A DNA stretch of 64,000 bases, from contig CAYUUX010000001.1 of the NCBI GenBank assembly GCA_964448085.1, positions 22,465 through 86,464 of the forward strand, read 5' to 3'. Numbering within the stretch: the stretch's first letter is position 1; every line of letters begins with the position of its first letter. The DNA comes from an uncultured Gammaproteobacteria bacterium (GTDB lineage: Bacteria; Patescibacteriota; Microgenomatia; UBA10105; UBA927). A program made the translations under genes and the position numbers. Below are positions 37,834-41,317 of this stretch, piece by piece. The notes under the pieces are model-generated. The model saw only the letters and a program-made list of their open reading frames with translations. It had not been told where the DNA came from and did not search any database.

Positions 37834-38250
37834 TTGCTATACTTTGTGTGCATGGACATGTCCTTTCTTCGTACAGCAAAAACTATCGCTGTTATCGGTC
37901 TTTCCGATATACAAGACAGACCAAGTTATCGGGTTGCTTCATACCTGCAACAGCATGGGTACAGGATTATTCCCGTCAACCCACATGTACGTTTTGTGTT
38001 GCACGAACCAAGTTTCCCTTCCATACAGGCAATACCAACCAACATACCAATTGATATCGTCGATATATTTAGAAAATCGGAATTTGTTCCCGACATCGTA
38101 AGATCGCTGTTACATCGCCAGGAAAAACCAATCATATGGATGCAGGAAGGCGTTGTATCCGATGAAGCAAAAAGACTTGCTGAATCCAACAATCTTCCTG
38201 TTGTTATGAACCTCTGTATCATGAAGGAACATCAGAAACTCGATCCATAA
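37834..38250 (+). CDS. CoA-binding domain protein (YccU-like)
   Basis: AKTIAVIGLSDIQDRPSYRVASYLQQHGYRIIPVNP: Rossmann-like CoA-binding fold signature; real start may be Met7 or Met9. Confidence 0.7.
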   Translation: MLYFVCMDMSFLRTAKTIAVIGLSDIQDRPSYRVASYLQQHGYRIIPVNPHVRFVLHEPSFPSIQAIPTNIPIDIVDIFRKSEFVPDIVRSLLHRQEKPIIWMQEGVVSDEAKRLAESNNLPVVMNLCIMKEHQKLDP

Positions 38251-39301
38251 ATTTTGTGAGCACCTTCGTGTATTGTTTTACAGAGACGATATCTATCCAT
38301 TCCCTGTCTGTATGAATATCACCCCCTTTTGGTTTACTGACGATTGCGGGTATTCCAACCGCAGAAAAAAACCGCGCGTCCGACGCTCCGTATTCGGATG
38401 TGTATATTCGACTTACCCGAGCAATACTGCGCACCTCTTGTTCCCATAGGCGTACATACGAATTATTTCTGTCCGTTTTATATATGCTCGCATTTGACAA
38501 AATGGTAACGTTGGATACTCCAAATACCTGTTCCACACGTTTTTTGATGTCTTCCGGAACAATCCCAGGGGGGTAGCGAAAATCCAAACGAGCAATTGCG
38601 CTGGATGCTACCTGGTTTGTCTGTAGTCCCCCTTGAATCACGCCAATGGTCAAGGTTGTGTTCCATGTCTCCTTTGTGGATTCTGGATAATACTCACGAA
38701 GACGCAACAATTTTCTAAGGAGAATGTCGTTTGCACTAATCCCATCCCATGGTCGAGAACCATGACACGATTTCCCCCGTACGCAAACCTCCACATGCAG
38801 CGCACCTTTCGCTTGTTCAACAATTTTCCAATTATCGCCACCGTCGGGACACACGATAATTTTTGCACGATAACCAACGGTATTTACCAAATACCCAACC
38901 CCGTTTTTTCCTCCAATTTCTTCATCGCCGGTCAGCATGATAGCAACAGAGGGCAATTTTTTATTTTTCTTCCACAGCGTCCGTAACGATTCGTTAAAAA
39001 CGGGAATTGCGTATTTCATATCAGATACGCCCCTCCCCAACCAACGACCCCTCTTTGTTTTCAAGGTAAATAGTTGTTGGCATCCTGGTACGACATCGAT
39101 GTGTGCGCTCAGGATTATGTCGCTTACAACACCGGGCTCTGTTGACCAAACAACCGAACGCACATCGTTGTGCATATACTTTCGCACTTTAAACGGATAC
39201 CAAGACAACACCTTCGCTATAAAGCCATAACATGCAACTATAGCTTTGTCGTTTCCCTGTATTGTTGTATAACCGATAAGTTTTTTTAGTGCTTCTTCCA
39301 T
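38219..39301 (-). CDS. M20 family metallo-amidohydrolase (ArgE/DapE/aminoacylase-like)
   Basis: HIDVV metal-binding His, GVSDMKY (Asp ligand plus catalytic region), TGDEEIGG (Glu ligands), C-terminal His region; start at MEEALKK. Confidence 0.8.
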   Translation of the reverse strand: MEEALKKLIGYTTIQGNDKAIVACYGFIAKVLSWYPFKVRKYMHNDVRSVVWSTEPGVVSDIILSAHIDVVPGCQQLFTLKTKRGRWLGRGVSDMKYAIPVFNESLRTLWKKNKKLPSVAIMLTGDEEIGGKNGVGYLVNTVGYRAKIIVCPDGGDNWKIVEQAKGALHVEVCVRGKSCHGSRPWDGISANDILLRKLLRLREYYPESTKETWNTTLTIGVIQGGLQTNQVASSAIARLDFRYPPGIVPEDIKKRVEQVFGVSNVTILSNASIYKTDRNNSYVRLWEQEVRSIARVSRIYTSEYGASDARFFSAVGIPAIVSKPKGGDIHTDREWIDIVSVKQYTKVLTKFMDRVSDVPS

Positions 39302-40404
39302 ATTGGTACCTCCAATTGCTTCACGGTACATTTTTTGATAAATTCCTCGTCCACTTCGTATCCCAGCCCCGGAATTTCGGATACTCGCGCCTCTCCCTCA
39401 ACGAGTTTAATCCCATTTGCAACGACATCTTTATCGAAATAGACCTCTGACGGAGACATATCAGCAGGCAAAGAAAACTCTGAAAGTGAGGCGGCTGCCA
39501 TGTTGTATGCTTTCCCGATTCCGCTTTCGATCATTCCTCCGCACCACAACGGAATATGTGCTTTTTTTGCAAGTTCATTAATGTCCCGTGTTTCGAGCAA
39601 GCTCCCGATTCTTCCCGGCTTAATATTAATGATTCTACATGCTCCAATCTCTATTGCCTGCCTCGCTTTCTCAAGACTCGTGATGCTTTCATCAAGGCAT
39701 ATCGGCGTAGCGATCTGTTTTTGCAGCTTCGCATGATCGATGATGTCATCAAATCCCAATGGTTGCTCAATCATCAAAAGATGATATGCATCCAACTTCT
39801 GCAATACCTTCAGATCTTTGAGCGTATATGATGAGTTCGCATCAACCATAAGGACAATATCCGGAAACGCACTTCGTATTCCGTCCACCAGCTCTATGTC
39901 CCAACCGGGTTTTATTTTTACTTTTATCCGCTTATATCCTTCTTCCAATCGTTTTTCCACGACTTCAAGGGTACGTTCCAAATTCGGCTGGATTCCAATA
40001 CTATCGCCAACTTCAATTTTTTTCCGCGTTCCACCCAGAAGCGTTGCCAAAGATATATGCTTTTCTTGCGAATCTATGGACCAAAGCGCGCATTCGACGC
40101 CGAATTTCGCGATTTTATGCTCGCGAATATATGCGGTTTTCGCAACATAGTCTGTAACGCTCGTTTCTTCGCTTCGCAACGCCGGGAGCAAAAAATCCCG
40201 CATGACGTGCCAGCATGTTTCAATCGTTTCCGATAGATACACCGGTGCTGTGAGTGCTGCCGATTCACCGTATCCGATGATATGATCGCTTGTTGTTAAT
40301 TTAACAAGCACGGTATCGCGCGACGGTATTGTACCGAAGCCTGTTACAAACGGTTCTTTCATCGGTATGTGTATGTGTAATAATTCTGCTTTTTCTATAT
40401 TCAT
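39286..40404 (-). CDS. enolase-superfamily enzyme, MLE subgroup (dipeptide epimerase / N-succinylamino-acid racemase / OSBS-like)
   Basis: KxK motif (RIKVKIKPG), metal ligands in MVDAN, MIEQP, CLDES, second catalytic Lys in INIKPGRIG; start at MNIEKAELL. Confidence 0.8.
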   Translation of the reverse strand: MNIEKAELLHIHIPMKEPFVTGFGTIPSRDTVLVKLTTSDHIIGYGESAALTAPVYLSETIETCWHVMRDFLLPALRSEETSVTDYVAKTAYIREHKIAKFGVECALWSIDSQEKHISLATLLGGTRKKIEVGDSIGIQPNLERTLEVVEKRLEEGYKRIKVKIKPGWDIELVDGIRSAFPDIVLMVDANSSYTLKDLKVLQKLDAYHLLMIEQPLGFDDIIDHAKLQKQIATPICLDESITSLEKARQAIEIGACRIINIKPGRIGSLLETRDINELAKKAHIPLWCGGMIESGIGKAYNMAAASLSEFSLPADMSPSEVYFDKDVVANGIKLVEGEARVSEIPGLGYEVDEEFIKKCTVKQLEVPIWKKH

Positions 40405-40412
40405 ATTCCTCC

Positions 40413-40682
40413 TTAAGAACCAGTCCATTCTGACGGACGATACCAATCATTCGGATCATCTCCGCCAATCTGTCTTTTCCCTAATCCATGACACATGTCA
40501 CACTCGCCCGTGTATTTATATAATCCGAAGCCGTGACATACATTGCAGTCACTTTTACAGAGATAATTTCCGTTCATGTTCATACTATGAGGACACGGTA
40601 CGTATTCATCATCAAAATACCCATATCCTTGACAGACTTCGCACGTCTCCCAATGATAATTCTGATAATTCTCTTTACTCAT
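40413..40682 (-). CDS. small Cys-rich protein with three DnaJ-type CxxCxGxG zinc-finger repeats
   Basis: CEVCQGYG, CNVCHGFG, CDMCHGLG repeats plus extra Cys/His; good RBS (AAAAGGAGCAAT-ATG); 9 nt upstream of the enolase-superfamily gene. Confidence 0.6.
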   Translation of the reverse strand: MSKENYQNYHWETCEVCQGYGYFDDEYVPCPHSMNMNGNYLCKSDCNVCHGFGLYKYTGECDMCHGLGKRQIGGDDPNDWYRPSEWTGS

Positions 40683-40836
40683 ATTGCTCCTTTTAAAAAT
40701 GTGTTTTATACCATAAAAAAGCCCTCCTTACGGAGGGTTTTCGTGAAGCTATGTATGGTTTTACTTAGGCACGCAAAAGTCCCCCCGTCTGAACGGGCAT
40801 CATAAAGTATTTATGAAAGGACTTTTGCACCATATG
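40683..40836 (-). ncRNA. structured 5' leader (riboswitch/attenuator-like): three-way junction plus terminator/antiterminator, class unassigned
   Basis: Minus-strand transcript from the predicted TSS contains 10 bp P1 (GCAAAAGUCC/GGACUUUUGC, plus 40773-40782/40819-40828) enclosing two hairpins (CAUAAA-UAC-UUUAUG and CCCGU-UCAG-ACGGG), then intrinsic terminator CCCUCC-GUAA-GGAGGG + UUUUUU (plus 40715-40738), then RBS and ATG. ACGGGGGG just 3' of the junction can alternatively pair with the terminator 5' arm CCCUCCGU (antiterminator). Confidence 0.5.
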
Positions 40837-40842
40837 AGAGAC

Positions 40843-40871
40843 ATAGTACAACGAAACGGAGTTCCAGTCAA
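40843..40871 (-). promoter_or_regulatory. sigma70 promoter for the leader/operon (TTGACT-17-TACTAT)
   Basis: Minus strand: TTGACT (plus 40866-40871), 17 nt spacer, TACTAT (plus 40843-40848). Confidence 0.5.
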
Positions 40872-40915
40872 ATGATCGTTTTCAGATATTTTTCAGAAGA
40901 TTCATGGTATGATGC

Positions 40916-41317
40916 ATGTACATGAAAAAAGAAATATACCTTTCCGTTACCGTAGCTGTTGTTCTTATAGCGGGAGTGCTTCTTTTTACGAAACGATCTT
41001 CCATACCCTCACCTTCAACGTCTGTACCAGTTTCCCAGGAGCCGATAGGCACGCAAACAACGACAAAAGAAGTTTCCCAAATTACCACCGCTGCGGTTTC
41101 ATCCCACAGCAGCGCTTCCAATTGCTGGATCATTCTCCAAAATAAAGCATATAACGTTACTACCTATCTCAGCCAACATCCGGGTGGAAGCGAGACCATA
41201 ATCCCGTATTGCGGTAAAGACGCAACGACAGCATTTAATACAATCAAAGACGGACGTGGTCATTCACCAAAGGCAATGGAAAATGCGTCACAATATTATG
41301 TTGGAGACGTGCTATAG
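40916..41317 (+). CDS. cytochrome b5-like heme-binding domain protein, membrane-anchored
   Basis: N-terminal TM; C-terminal TTYLSQHPGGSETIIPYCGKDATTAFNTIKDGRGHSPKA = cyt b5 fold signature (HPGG, second axial His region). Confidence 0.7.
   Translation: MYMKKEIYLSVTVAVVLIAGVLLFTKRSSIPSPSTSVPVSQEPIGTQTTTKEVSQITTAAVSSHSSASNCWIILQNKAYNVTTYLSQHPGGSETIIPYCGKDATTAFNTIKDGRGHSPKAMENASQYYVGDVL

What the first reader, a model, noticed from the sequence alone, without database searches (positions are those of the whole stretch)
38219..40682. Three-gene module: DnaJ-type CxxCxGxG mini-protein, MLE-subgroup enolase enzyme and M20 amidohydrolase
The enolase-superfamily protein has the full MLE-subgroup catalytic set: KxK, Asp/Glu/Asp metal ligands and the second catalytic Lys. 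That subgroup includes L-Ala-D/L-Glu epimerases and N-succinylamino-acid racemases. It is translationally coupled to an M20 amidohydrolase downstream.

Upstream sits an 89-aa protein made almost entirely of three CxxCxGxG repeats, the zinc-finger repeat of DnaJ. DnaJ has four such repeats and uses them for substrate binding.

By analogy with B. subtilis ykfABCD and E. coli ycjG/mpaA, the two enzymes would form a murein-peptide or N-acyl-D-amino-acid salvage route. That would be valuable to an auxotrophic symbiont. The stand-alone DnaJ-type zinc finger in such a context is unusual and has no obvious role.
Basis: partly seen in the sequence, partly recalled or inferred. Interest (0 to 1): 0.55.

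Follow-up and report, generated by a model that had tools for sequence, protein, structure and literature searches.

The report
Amino-acid racemase/deacylase pair plus orphan zinc-finger
The two enzymes are a new instance of a known two-step route that turns N-acylated D-amino acids into usable L-amino acids, and the small zinc-finger gene in front of them is a real but very rare protein that is not part of that route in any related genome.

Summary
All three minus-strand genes exist at the stated coordinates and are tightly packed. The enolase-superfamily protein (39286-40404) is not an L-Ala-D/L-Glu epimerase. It belongs to the N-succinylamino-acid racemase/o-succinylbenzoate synthase (NSAR/OSBS) subfamily: it passes TIGR01928, its best solved relatives are N-acylamino-acid racemases, and it keeps K161/K163, D188, E213, D238, K262 and the NSAR-linked Arg265.

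The M20 protein (38219-39301) is ArgE/DapE-like with intact metal ligands. It overlaps the racemase gene by 16 nt. The racemase+M20 pairing recurs in all eight related Patescibacteria-type loci I fetched. [quoted passage not shown] No GNAT-like or menaquinone gene lies in the window.

The 89-aa ORF holds the only three CxxCxGxG motifs in the window and resembles the DnaJ cysteine-rich domain. Among 1.8 billion representative proteins it has one true homologue cluster, and that sits in an unrelated context. No other racemase locus carries such an ORF, so the trio is not a conserved module.

Verdict: a known pathway core with a different M20 type, plus a lineage-specific zinc-finger gene of unknown role. 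Interest is low to moderate.

The parts
40413..40682 (-). 89-aa cysteine-rich zinc-ribbon protein. It has three CxxCxGxG motifs plus a degenerate C-P-H / C42 element, and resembles the DnaJ cysteine-rich domain.
   Evidence: ORF preceded by AAGGAG. Pfam DnaJ_CXXCXGXG scores 20.5 bits, below the gathering score of 32.7. A profile search of PDB gives the E. coli DnaJ cysteine-rich domain 1exk as best hit, E=2.9e-4. One true homologue cluster exists (P0123, 49% identity, E=7.5e-19), with all Cys, His and Gly motif residues invariant.
39286..40404 (-). NSAR/OSBS-subfamily enolase-superfamily enzyme (372 aa); predicted N-succinyl (N-acyl) amino-acid racemase.
   Evidence: Pfam MR_MLE_N and MR_MLE_C. 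TIGR01928 scores 354.7 bits against a cut-off of 200.65. Best PDB relatives are 2zc8, 1r0m, 1wuf and 1sja at 282-303 bits. K161, K163, D188, E213, D238, K262 and R265 are invariant.
38219..39301 (-). ArgE/DapE-like M20 metallo-deacylase (360 aa); predicted N-succinyl/N-acyl-L-amino-acid hydrolase. It overlaps the racemase gene by 16 nt.
   Evidence: Pfam Peptidase_M20 and M20_dimer. It falls below every NCBIfam equivalog cut-off; the best are DapE/ArgE models. Best PDB hit is 2rb7 at 130 bits, followed by DapE structures. H67, D94, E127, E128 and H330 are invariant. Orthologues sit next to the racemase gene in Patescibacteria loci.
40683..40840 (-). Structured 5' leader: a three-way-junction-like fold (about 40754-40834) followed by a terminator-like hairpin with a T-run (40713-40741) just upstream of the small ORF.
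   Evidence: MFE -47 kcal/mol, z-score -4.76 against 200 shuffles. Terminator-like site found. No Rfam family. No homologue in other loci. Function not established.
40843..40871 (-). Sigma-70-like promoter candidate, TTGACT-17 nt-TACTAT.
   Evidence: Consensus scan gives 9 of 12 matches. The number of such sites in the region is not above the shuffled expectation, so support is weak.

Best explanation
This is one transcription unit on the minus strand with three genes: an 89-aa zinc-ribbon protein, an NSAR/OSBS-subfamily racemase, and an ArgE/DapE-type M20 deacylase.

**How the two enzymes work (inferred from family chemistry).** They form the racemase and hydrolase core of the known N-succinyl-amino-acid route for irreversible D-to-L amino-acid conversion. 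The racemase interconverts N-succinyl- (or other N-acyl-) D- and L-amino acids. It does so by two-base 1,1-proton transfer (K163 and K262) on a metal-stabilised enolate (ligands D188, E213, D238). The di-metal M20 enzyme then hydrolyses only the L-form to a free L-amino acid plus succinate or acetate. That step pulls the equilibrium in one direction.

**The missing first step.** In Geobacillus, and in several related Patescibacteria loci, a GNAT-like acyltransferase makes the N-acyl substrate. That gene is not next to this pair. So the substrate is either made by a gene elsewhere in the genome or scavenged as ready-made N-acyl amino acids.

**The small protein.** It is a real, probably two-zinc, DnaJ-cysteine-rich-domain-like protein that has landed at the head of this operon in one lineage. 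It is most likely not a catalytic component of the pathway.

**Shown versus inferred.** Shown: gene anatomy, family membership, conserved catalytic residues, conservation of the enzyme pair, and non-conservation of the small ORF. Inferred: the substrate, the direction of flux, zinc binding, and co-transcription.
For: **Family assignment.**
- The racemase passes TIGR01928 above its cut-off.
- Its nearest solved relatives are N-acylamino-acid racemases / NSAR-OSBS enzymes.
- The catalytic set plus R265 is invariant. [quoted passage not shown]

**Published pathway.** The D-to-L conversion pathway is GNAT succinyltransferase + NSAR/OSBS + M20 L-desuccinylase (bioRxiv 10.1101/2022.03.03.481873).

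**Conservation of the pair.**
- A window-type M20 lies in all 8 distinct Patescibacteria-type racemase loci.
- It is directly next to the racemase gene in 6 of them. In L018, L019 and L100 the two genes overlap by 4 nt.

**Wider family context, about 80 loci.**
- 36 have a homologous protein of about 270-310 aa immediately upstream. Ten of these hit GNAT Acetyltransf_1.
- 17 have a TIGR01891-type M20 two genes upstream, and 6 have an M20 immediately downstream.
- Only 5-6 have MenB- or MenE-type neighbours.

**M20 competence.** The metal and catalytic residues are intact, and DapE desuccinylases and ArgE are its next-nearest relatives.

**Small ORF.** It has a strong ribosome-binding site. Its only homologue conserves every Cys, His and Gly motif residue but lies in an unrelated, stand-alone context. 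No other racemase locus carries a CxxCxGxG ORF.
Against: - No GNAT-like acyltransferase homologue lies in the 64-kb window, so the pathway as published is incomplete here.
- The M20 is a different subfamily from the TIGR01891-type M20 in Firmicutes cassettes. Its substrate is unproven, and it passes no NCBIfam equivalog cut-off.
- Sequence alone cannot separate NSAR from OSBS function within this subfamily (PMC12006748).
- Only 64 kb of the genome was available, so menaquinone genes elsewhere cannot be excluded.
- The 8-nt junction, with the ribosome-binding site overlapping the small ORF's stop codon, would also fit a functional link between the small protein and the enzymes.
Confidence: 0.62

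Rival explanations
1. The small zinc-finger protein is a dedicated partner of the enzymes. It might be a specific holdase or assembly factor, a zinc donor for the di-metal M20 enzyme, or an anti-TRAP-like protein inhibitor or regulator. In that case the trio would be a functional unit in this lineage.
For: Only 8 nt separate its stop from the racemase start, and the ribosome-binding site overlaps the stop codon. All three genes share one upstream leader. Stand-alone CxxCxGxG mini-proteins with specific roles do exist in bacteria: anti-TRAP (PMC10327191) and cysimiditide precursors (bioRxiv 10.1101/2024.10.02.616296).
Against: The small ORF is absent from all 8 related Patescibacteria racemase/M20 loci and from 80 wider loci. 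Its only homologue is a stand-alone gene among unrelated hypothetical genes, with no racemase or M20 nearby and no shared neighbour with the window. No sequence match to anti-TRAP appeared in the PDB profile search at E<=10.
Confidence: 0.2
2. The enolase-superfamily enzyme is a true o-succinylbenzoate synthase working in menaquinone synthesis, as public annotation of its relatives says. The M20 gene is then an unrelated neighbour.
For: The TIGR01928 'o-succinylbenzoate synthase' equivalog is passed. Relatives are named OSBS by NCBI and JGI. Members of the subfamily are often bifunctional (PMC12006748).
Against: No MenB or MenE homologue lies in the window. The closest relatives consistently sit with M20, GNAT-like, aminotransferase and PLP-decarboxylase genes, never with men genes. 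The M20 gene overlaps the racemase gene in four genomes. From established knowledge, not tested here: Patescibacteria generally lack quinone biosynthesis and respiratory chains.
Confidence: 0.07
3. One reading: an L-Ala-D/L-Glu epimerase plus a peptidase recycling murein peptides, as in ykfABCD or ycjG/mpaA.
For: The same MLE subgroup of the enolase superfamily. The catalytic residues are shared by both families.
Against: L-Ala-D/L-Glu epimerase models NF041118 (91 bits, cut-off 500) and NF011708 (67 bits, cut-off 343) are far from met. YkfB (1jpm) scores 88 bits and YcjG (1jpd) 53 bits, against about 300 bits for N-acylamino-acid racemases. The partner is an M20 deacylase, not an MpaA (M14) or YkfC (NlpC/P60) type peptidase.
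Confidence: 0.03
4. The 89-aa ORF is a spurious, non-coding reading frame.
For: Pfam and NCBIfam hits are below threshold. AlphaFold2 gives no confident fold, pLDDT 37.7. The family is extremely rare.
Against: A homologue at 49% identity (E=7.5e-19 against 1.84 billion proteins) keeps all 8 Cys, H32 and the motif glycines. Three exact CxxCxGxG motifs never arise in 200,000 shuffles. It has a ribosome-binding site and its stop is coupled to the next gene's start.
Confidence: 0.03

Closest known systems
[quoted passage not shown] 2006, as summarised in bioRxiv 10.1101/2022.03.03.481873)
   Same: The racemase is from the same NSAR/OSBS subfamily and has the same catalytic residues, including the R266 equivalent. 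It is directly coupled to an M20-family deacylase gene. The expected chemistry is the same: racemise the N-acyl amino acid, then hydrolyse the L-form.
   Different: No GNAT-like gene lies adjacent or anywhere in the 64-kb window. The M20 is ArgE/DapE-like (nearest structure 2rb7), not the TIGR01891 amidohydrolase type found in Firmicutes cassettes. The gene order is racemase then M20, rather than M20, GNAT, racemase. An extra zinc-finger ORF sits at the head of the operon.
Patescibacteria racemase clusters (L016, L018, L019, L020, L100-L103)
   Same: The racemase is 55-59% identical. An orthologous M20 (34-50% identity) lies adjacent or nearby, often overlapping the racemase gene by 4 nt.
   Different: None has the small zinc-finger ORF. 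Four of them add a GNAT-like protein of about 300 aa, a class I/II aminotransferase and a PLP-dependent decarboxylase, all of which the window lacks.
DnaJ cysteine-rich domain (Pfam PF00684; E. coli DnaJ 1exk)
   Same: CxxCxGxG motifs with DnaJ-like spacing. The match is colinear across all four motif positions (E=2.9e-4 in PDB).
   Different: Only three intact motifs; the second is reduced to C-P-H, with an extra conserved C42. There is no J-domain, G/F region or C-terminal domains. The score is below the Pfam gathering threshold.
Anti-TRAP (B. subtilis RtpA/YczA), a stand-alone zinc-binding CxxCxGxG mini-protein that regulates tryptophan genes
   Same: A small, stand-alone bacterial DnaJ-type zinc-finger protein encoded at the head of an operon behind a structured leader with a terminator, in an amino-acid-metabolism setting.
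   Different: No detectable sequence similarity. Anti-TRAP has one zinc site and 53 residues. No T-box or any other Rfam family lies in the leader here. No TRAP-like target is known.

Membership tests
Enolase superfamily, MLE subgroup | MR_MLE N- and C-terminal domains; KxK motif; Asp/Glu/Asp metal ligands; second catalytic Lys | tested here: met
   Pfam MR_MLE_C scores 158.8 bits and MR_MLE_N 41.7 bits. K161/K163, D188, E213, D238 and K262 are invariant in 25 sequences.
NSAR/OSBS subfamily (TIGR01928) | Score above the curated cut-off of the subfamily model | tested here: met
   354.7 bits against a cut-off of 200.65. Best PDB relatives are NSAR/OSBS and N-acylamino-acid racemase enzymes at 276-303 bits.
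NSAR/OSBS subfamily (TIGR01928) | Second-shell Arg equivalent to R266 of the Amycolatopsis enzyme, conserved in this subfamily and absent from other OSBS subfamilies | tested here: met
   R265 is invariant in alignment A1, three residues after K262. The criterion comes from PMC12006748.
NSAR as the biological function (D-to-L conversion pathway) | Operon with an M20 L-desuccinylase | tested here: met
   The M20 gene overlaps the racemase gene by 16 nt. The pairing is conserved in 8 of 8 related loci.
NSAR as the biological function (D-to-L conversion pathway) | Operon with a GNAT succinyltransferase | tested here: not met
   tblastn finds no homologue of the GNAT-like neighbour family in the 64-kb window. 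That family is present in 4 related Patescibacteria loci.
NSAR as the biological function (D-to-L conversion pathway) | Measured racemisation of N-succinyl amino acids | not testable with these tools
   Needs enzymology.
OSBS as the biological function (menaquinone synthesis) | Location in, or presence of, a men operon (MenB, MenE and others) | tested here: not met
   No MenB (ECH_1) or MenE (AMP-binding) homologue in the window, and none next to Patescibacteria relatives. The rest of the genome was not available.
L-Ala-D/L-Glu epimerase | Score above the curated equivalog cut-offs | tested here: not met
   NF041118 scores 91.2 bits (cut-off 500) and NF011708 66.9 bits (cut-off 343). 1jpm scores 88 bits.
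Peptidase M20 (ArgE/DapE/ACY1/CPG2 group) | Catalytic and dimerisation domains; His/Asp/Glu/His metal ligands and the catalytic Glu | tested here: met
   Peptidase_M20 scores 72.9 bits and M20_dimer 65.9 bits. H67, D94, E127, E128 and H330 are invariant.
Succinyl-diaminopimelate desuccinylase (DapE) or acetylornithine deacetylase (ArgE) proper | Score above the equivalog cut-offs | tested here: not met
   The best equivalog, NF006399, scores 124.7 bits (cut-off 381). The subfamily model TIGR01910 scores 120.7 bits (cut-off 217.6).
DnaJ cysteine-rich domain (PF00684) | Four CxxCxGxG motifs; score above the Pfam gathering threshold | tested here: not met
   Three intact motifs plus a degenerate C-P-H element. 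The score is 20.5 bits against 32.7. The PDB profile hit to 1exk at E=2.9e-4 shows likeness, not membership.
DnaJ/Hsp40 chaperone | J-domain with an HPD motif | tested here: not met
   The 89-aa protein consists of the Cys-rich region only. DnaJ models align only to their zinc-finger segment, at about 15 bits.
Zinc binding by the small protein | Bound Zn(II) with tetrahedral Cys/His sites | not testable with these tools
   The AlphaFold2 model is unusable, pLDDT 37.7. Metal analysis is needed.

The most novel reading that the evidence does not exclude
In this lineage the small DnaJ-type zinc-ribbon protein has been recruited as a specific partner of the racemase/deacylase pair. It could be an anti-TRAP-like protein regulator or a zinc-handling factor for the di-metal M20 enzyme. 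Alternatively or additionally, the structured leader with its terminator is an undescribed cis-regulatory RNA that senses an amino-acid derivative. Either would make this a new regulatory layer on D-to-L amino-acid salvage in an ultra-small bacterium.
Probability: 0.1. Interest if true: 0.6.

Novelty: new variant of a known kind. Interest (0 to 1): 0.3.

Why it matters
If the assignment holds, ultra-small, amino-acid-dependent Patescibacteria carry a compact racemase/deacylase route. It would let them turn N-acylated or D-amino acids, which are abundant in cell-wall debris and host exudates, into proteinogenic L-amino acids.

It also flags a systematic mis-naming of these genes as 'o-succinylbenzoate synthase' and 'succinyl-diaminopimelate desuccinylase' in organisms that probably make neither menaquinone nor that lysine-pathway intermediate.

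The zinc-finger mini-protein adds one more member to the short list of stand-alone bacterial DnaJ-type zinc fingers. However, there is no evidence that it matters for the pathway.

Tried and rejected
- **Structure of the small protein.** AlphaFold2 on the 4-sequence alignment gave mean pLDDT 37.7. I ran no fold search, because a low-confidence model gives meaningless matches.
- **Homologues of the small protein.** The word-indexed search of 5.8 billion proteins found only the protein itself. The exhaustive search of 1.84 billion representatives found one real homologue cluster and two repetitive junk ORFs, P0122 and P0124, which I rejected on inspection.
- **Strain variation.** All 10 contigs that carry the small ORF are 100% (one 99.9%) identical to the window. 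Neither selection on the ORF nor covariation in the leader could be tested.
- **Leader RNA.** There was no Rfam match at gathering or at E<=10, apart from chance terminator-driven hits. nhmmer against 93 other loci found only generic CCCTCC/GGAGGG terminators. Short leader ORFs read from the sequence have no ribosome-binding site and no amino-acid run, so I rejected leader-peptide attenuation. I did not build a covariance model from a single sequence.
- **Shared partner for the small protein.** No gene in the homologue's locus L011 has a relative in the window other than the small ORF itself.
- **Organism name.** Cluster look-up gave no names. The genome scan did not return the window's own genome. 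The Patescibacteria assignment rests on the nearest relatives of both enzymes.
- **Sakai et al. 2006.** The paper is not held in the library. I took the pathway from later papers that summarise it.
Full report
**Observation**

Three minus-strand ORFs occupy exactly 38219-40682. Reading the sequence refines two of the starts.

- The small ORF runs 40682-40413 (89 aa) and follows AAGGAG.
- Its TAA stop (40415-40413) lies inside TAAGGAGGAATATG. That gives the next gene a strong ribosome-binding site and an ATG at 40404, 8 nt after the stop. The enolase-superfamily protein is therefore 372 aa, as independent gene callers also found, not the 386-aa TTG form.
- The M20 gene most likely starts at 39301 (MEEALKK, with GGAGG 7 nt upstream). 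This matches the N-termini of its orthologues and gives 360 aa and a 16-nt overlap with the racemase gene.

The three CxxCxGxG motifs in the 89-aa ORF are the only ones in all six frames of the 64-kb window. They never arise in 200,000 shuffles of the protein's own residues.

**The enolase-superfamily enzyme**

- Pfam gives MR_MLE_N and MR_MLE_C.
- NCBIfam places it above the cut-off of only one model, TIGR01928 (354.7 bits against 200.65). That model is labelled 'o-succinylbenzoate synthase, low-GC/archaeal'.
- The L-Ala-D/L-Glu epimerase models reach 91 bits (cut-off 500) and 67 bits (cut-off 343).
- Among solved structures, the best matches are N-acylamino-acid racemases and NSAR/OSBS enzymes: Thermus 2zc8 at 303 bits, Deinococcus 1r0m at 296, Listeria 1wuf at 296 and Amycolatopsis 1sja at 282.
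- B. subtilis YkfB (1jpm) scores 88 bits and E. coli YcjG (1jpd) 53 bits.
- In an alignment with 24 relatives, K161, K163, D188, E213, D238, K262 and R265 are invariant.

R265 corresponds to R266 of the Amycolatopsis enzyme. That second-shell residue is conserved in the NSAR/OSBS subfamily, is absent from non-promiscuous OSBS subfamilies, and is important for racemase activity (PMC12006748). The same literature stresses that biological function within this subfamily (OSBS, NSAR or both) is read from genome context, not from sequence.

**The M20 enzyme**

- It has the M20 catalytic and dimerisation domains.
- The metal and catalytic residues H67, D94, E127/E128 and H330 are intact.
- It passes no NCBIfam equivalog cut-off. 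The closest models are DapE desuccinylases and ArgE.
- Its nearest structure is the uncharacterised 2rb7 (130 bits), followed by DapE structures.
- Its nearest relatives in public data are Patescibacteria proteins auto-named 'M20 family metallo-hydrolase' or 'succinyl-diaminopimelate desuccinylase'.

**Context in relatives**

The closest racemase homologues (55-60% identity) are from Patescibacteria: Collierbacteria, Gottesmanbacteria, Woesebacteria and 'Patescibacteria group'. I fetched eight distinct such loci.

- Every one has an orthologue of the window's M20 (34-50% identity) in the cluster.
- In six loci it is directly adjacent. In L018, L019 and L100 the racemase and M20 genes overlap by 4 nt.
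- Four loci (L016, L020, L102, L103) carry a fuller cassette. It includes a class I/II aminotransferase, a protein of about 300 aa with no Pfam hit, and the racemase. A PLP-dependent decarboxylase and the M20 sit in or near the cluster.

That 300-aa protein is homologous (BLASTP E of 1e-20 to 1e-26) to the protein of about 270 aa found immediately upstream of the racemase in 36 of 81 loci across Firmicutes, Acidobacteriota, Chloroflexota and others. Ten of those hit the GNAT Acetyltransf_1 model.

In the same wider sample:
- 17 loci have a TIGR01891-type M20 two genes upstream.
- 6 have an M20 immediately downstream.
- Only 5-6 have MenB- or MenE-type neighbours.

[quoted passage not shown] That pathway is a GNAT succinyltransferase, an NSAR/OSBS enzyme and an M20 L-desuccinylase (bioRxiv 10.1101/2022.03.03.481873; Sakai et al. 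2006 as cited in PMC12006748).

The window carries a minimal form: racemase plus M20, and a different M20 subfamily. The window M20 finds no tblastn match in the Firmicutes cassettes. The window holds no GNAT-like, MenB or MenE homologue. Its other large ORFs are ordinary housekeeping genes such as SecA, Lon, PFOR, RecJ and aminoacyl-tRNA synthetases.

**The small protein**

- Pfam DnaJ_CXXCXGXG scores 20.5 bits, below the gathering score of 32.7.
- A profile built from the protein and its homologues hits the E. coli DnaJ cysteine-rich domain (1exk) as best PDB match, at E=2.9e-4. The match is colinear over all four motif positions.
- Motif 2 is reduced to C30-P-H32, and there is an extra conserved C42.
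- The spacing is C14-x2-C17-x12-C30-x-H32-x9-C42-x3-C46-x2-C49-x11-C61-x2-C64. It resembles the DnaJ domain, in which motifs 1 and 4 form one zinc site and motifs 2 and 3 form the other. Two zinc sites are therefore a reasonable inference, but an untested one.
- AlphaFold2 gave no usable model, pLDDT 37.7.

The family is extraordinarily rare. The 5.8-billion-protein search found only the protein itself. The exhaustive scan of 1.84 billion representatives found one true homologue cluster (P0123, 91 aa, 49% identity, E=7.5e-19). All 8 Cys, H32 and the motif glycines are invariant in it. That conservation argues for a real protein.

The homologue, however, is a stand-alone gene flanked by long intergenic regions and unrelated hypothetical genes. 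No racemase or M20 lies nearby, and it shares no neighbour with the window. None of the 88 other racemase loci has an ORF with two or more CxxCxGxG motifs. All ten contigs carrying the window's small ORF are identical in sequence, so they represent one population. The 'three-gene module' therefore exists in a single lineage only.

**How it most likely works**

The racemase equilibrates N-succinyl- (or N-acyl-) D- and L-amino acids by two-base proton transfer on a metal-bound enolate. This is established for the family (PMC8142540; PMC12006748). The M20 deacylase then releases the L-amino acid and makes the conversion irreversible.

Which amino acids are involved is unknown. Related clusters sit beside pheS/pheT (L018, L103) or tyrS (L016), and NSAR/OSBS enzymes are reported to prefer hydrophobic side chains (PMC12006748). 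Both hint at aromatic or hydrophobic residues, but this is inference.

With no acyltransferase nearby, the substrate may be scavenged N-acyl amino acids, or it may be made by a gene elsewhere in the genome. The small protein is best read as a lineage-specific zinc-ribbon gene inserted at the head of the operon. A specific partner role is possible; I give it about 0.2. Precedents for such mini-proteins include anti-TRAP and cysimiditide precursors.

**The upstream leader**

The 233-nt divergent intergenic region contains three features:
- a weak sigma-70-like promoter match (40871-40843, not above chance);
- a strongly folding leader (z-score -4.76) with a compact three-way junction;
- a terminator-like hairpin with a T-run (40741-40713), about 30 nt before the small ORF.

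No co-directional upstream gene could own that terminator. No Rfam family matches, no related sequence exists in the other loci, and no sequence variants are available. It could be an attenuator or riboswitch, a small RNA, or simply an insulator. An extended -10-like TGGTATAAA after the hairpin could even supply a separate promoter. This stays unexplained.

**Verdict**

It is wrong on the murein-peptide analogy and on the trio being a module.

The enzyme pair is a new instance, with a different M20 type and no adjacent acyltransferase, of a pathway described in 2006. The zinc-finger ORF is a real orphan of unknown role. Interest is low to moderate (0.3).

Noticed in passing
window 40683-40840 (minus strand): Strongly structured leader (z-score -4.76). 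A compact three-way junction is followed by a terminator-like hairpin and T-run about 30 nt before the small ORF, in a divergent intergenic region where no upstream gene could own the terminator. No Rfam family matches, no homologue was found, and no sequence variants are available.
   Followed up: partly
L016 3714-9469; L102 363-6202; L103 654-6688; L020 3931-7077: Related Patescibacteria carry a fuller conserved cassette: a PLP-dependent decarboxylase, a class I/II (HisC-like) aminotransferase, a GNAT-like protein of about 300 aa with no Pfam or NCBIfam hit, the NSAR/OSBS racemase and an ArgE/DapE-like M20. It often lies beside pheS/pheT (L018, L103) or tyrS (L016). This hints at a wider aromatic amino-acid salvage or conversion cluster that I found no description of in the paper library.
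   Followed up: partly
L016 4865-5761, L020 5078-6004, L102 3077-3994, L103 3002-3958, and 36 of 81 upstream neighbours in L016-L098: The protein of about 270-310 aa immediately upstream of the racemase is one homologous family across several phyla (BLASTP E of 1e-20 to 1e-26 between the Patescibacteria members and the rest). It is recognised by Pfam GNAT in only 10 cases and by no NCBIfam model. It is probably the succinyltransferase of the D-to-L pathway and is poorly covered by current profile libraries.
   Followed up: partly
window 40916-41317 (+) and 40882-41133 (-): A membrane-anchored cytochrome-b5-domain protein is encoded divergently from the operon. In several public assemblies an antisense 83-aa ORF was called in its place, which is probably a gene-calling error.
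   Followed up: no
window 37834-38250 (+): A CoA_binding_2 (PF13380) gene converges on the M20 gene, and the two 3' ends overlap by 32 nt. There is no terminator between them. A link to acyl-CoA chemistry is possible but untested.
   Followed up: no
L101 2929-7799: One related locus has two paralogous window-type M20 genes flanking the racemase gene, plus a 514-aa protein with no Pfam hit.
   Followed up: no
Public annotation of P0006, P0054, P0069, P0134 and others: Patescibacteria members of this pair are auto-annotated as 'o-succinylbenzoate synthase' and 'succinyl-diaminopimelate desuccinylase'. Given their context, these names are probably systematic over-annotation.
   Followed up: partly
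L018 3830-3905; L019 6055-6081; L102 6340-6373: In related Patescibacteria loci, hairpin-plus-T-run terminators of the CCCTCC/GGAGGG type sit immediately before start codons. In L019 the 3' arm of the hairpin doubles as the ribosome-binding site of the racemase gene. This could couple termination with translational masking.
   Followed up: no
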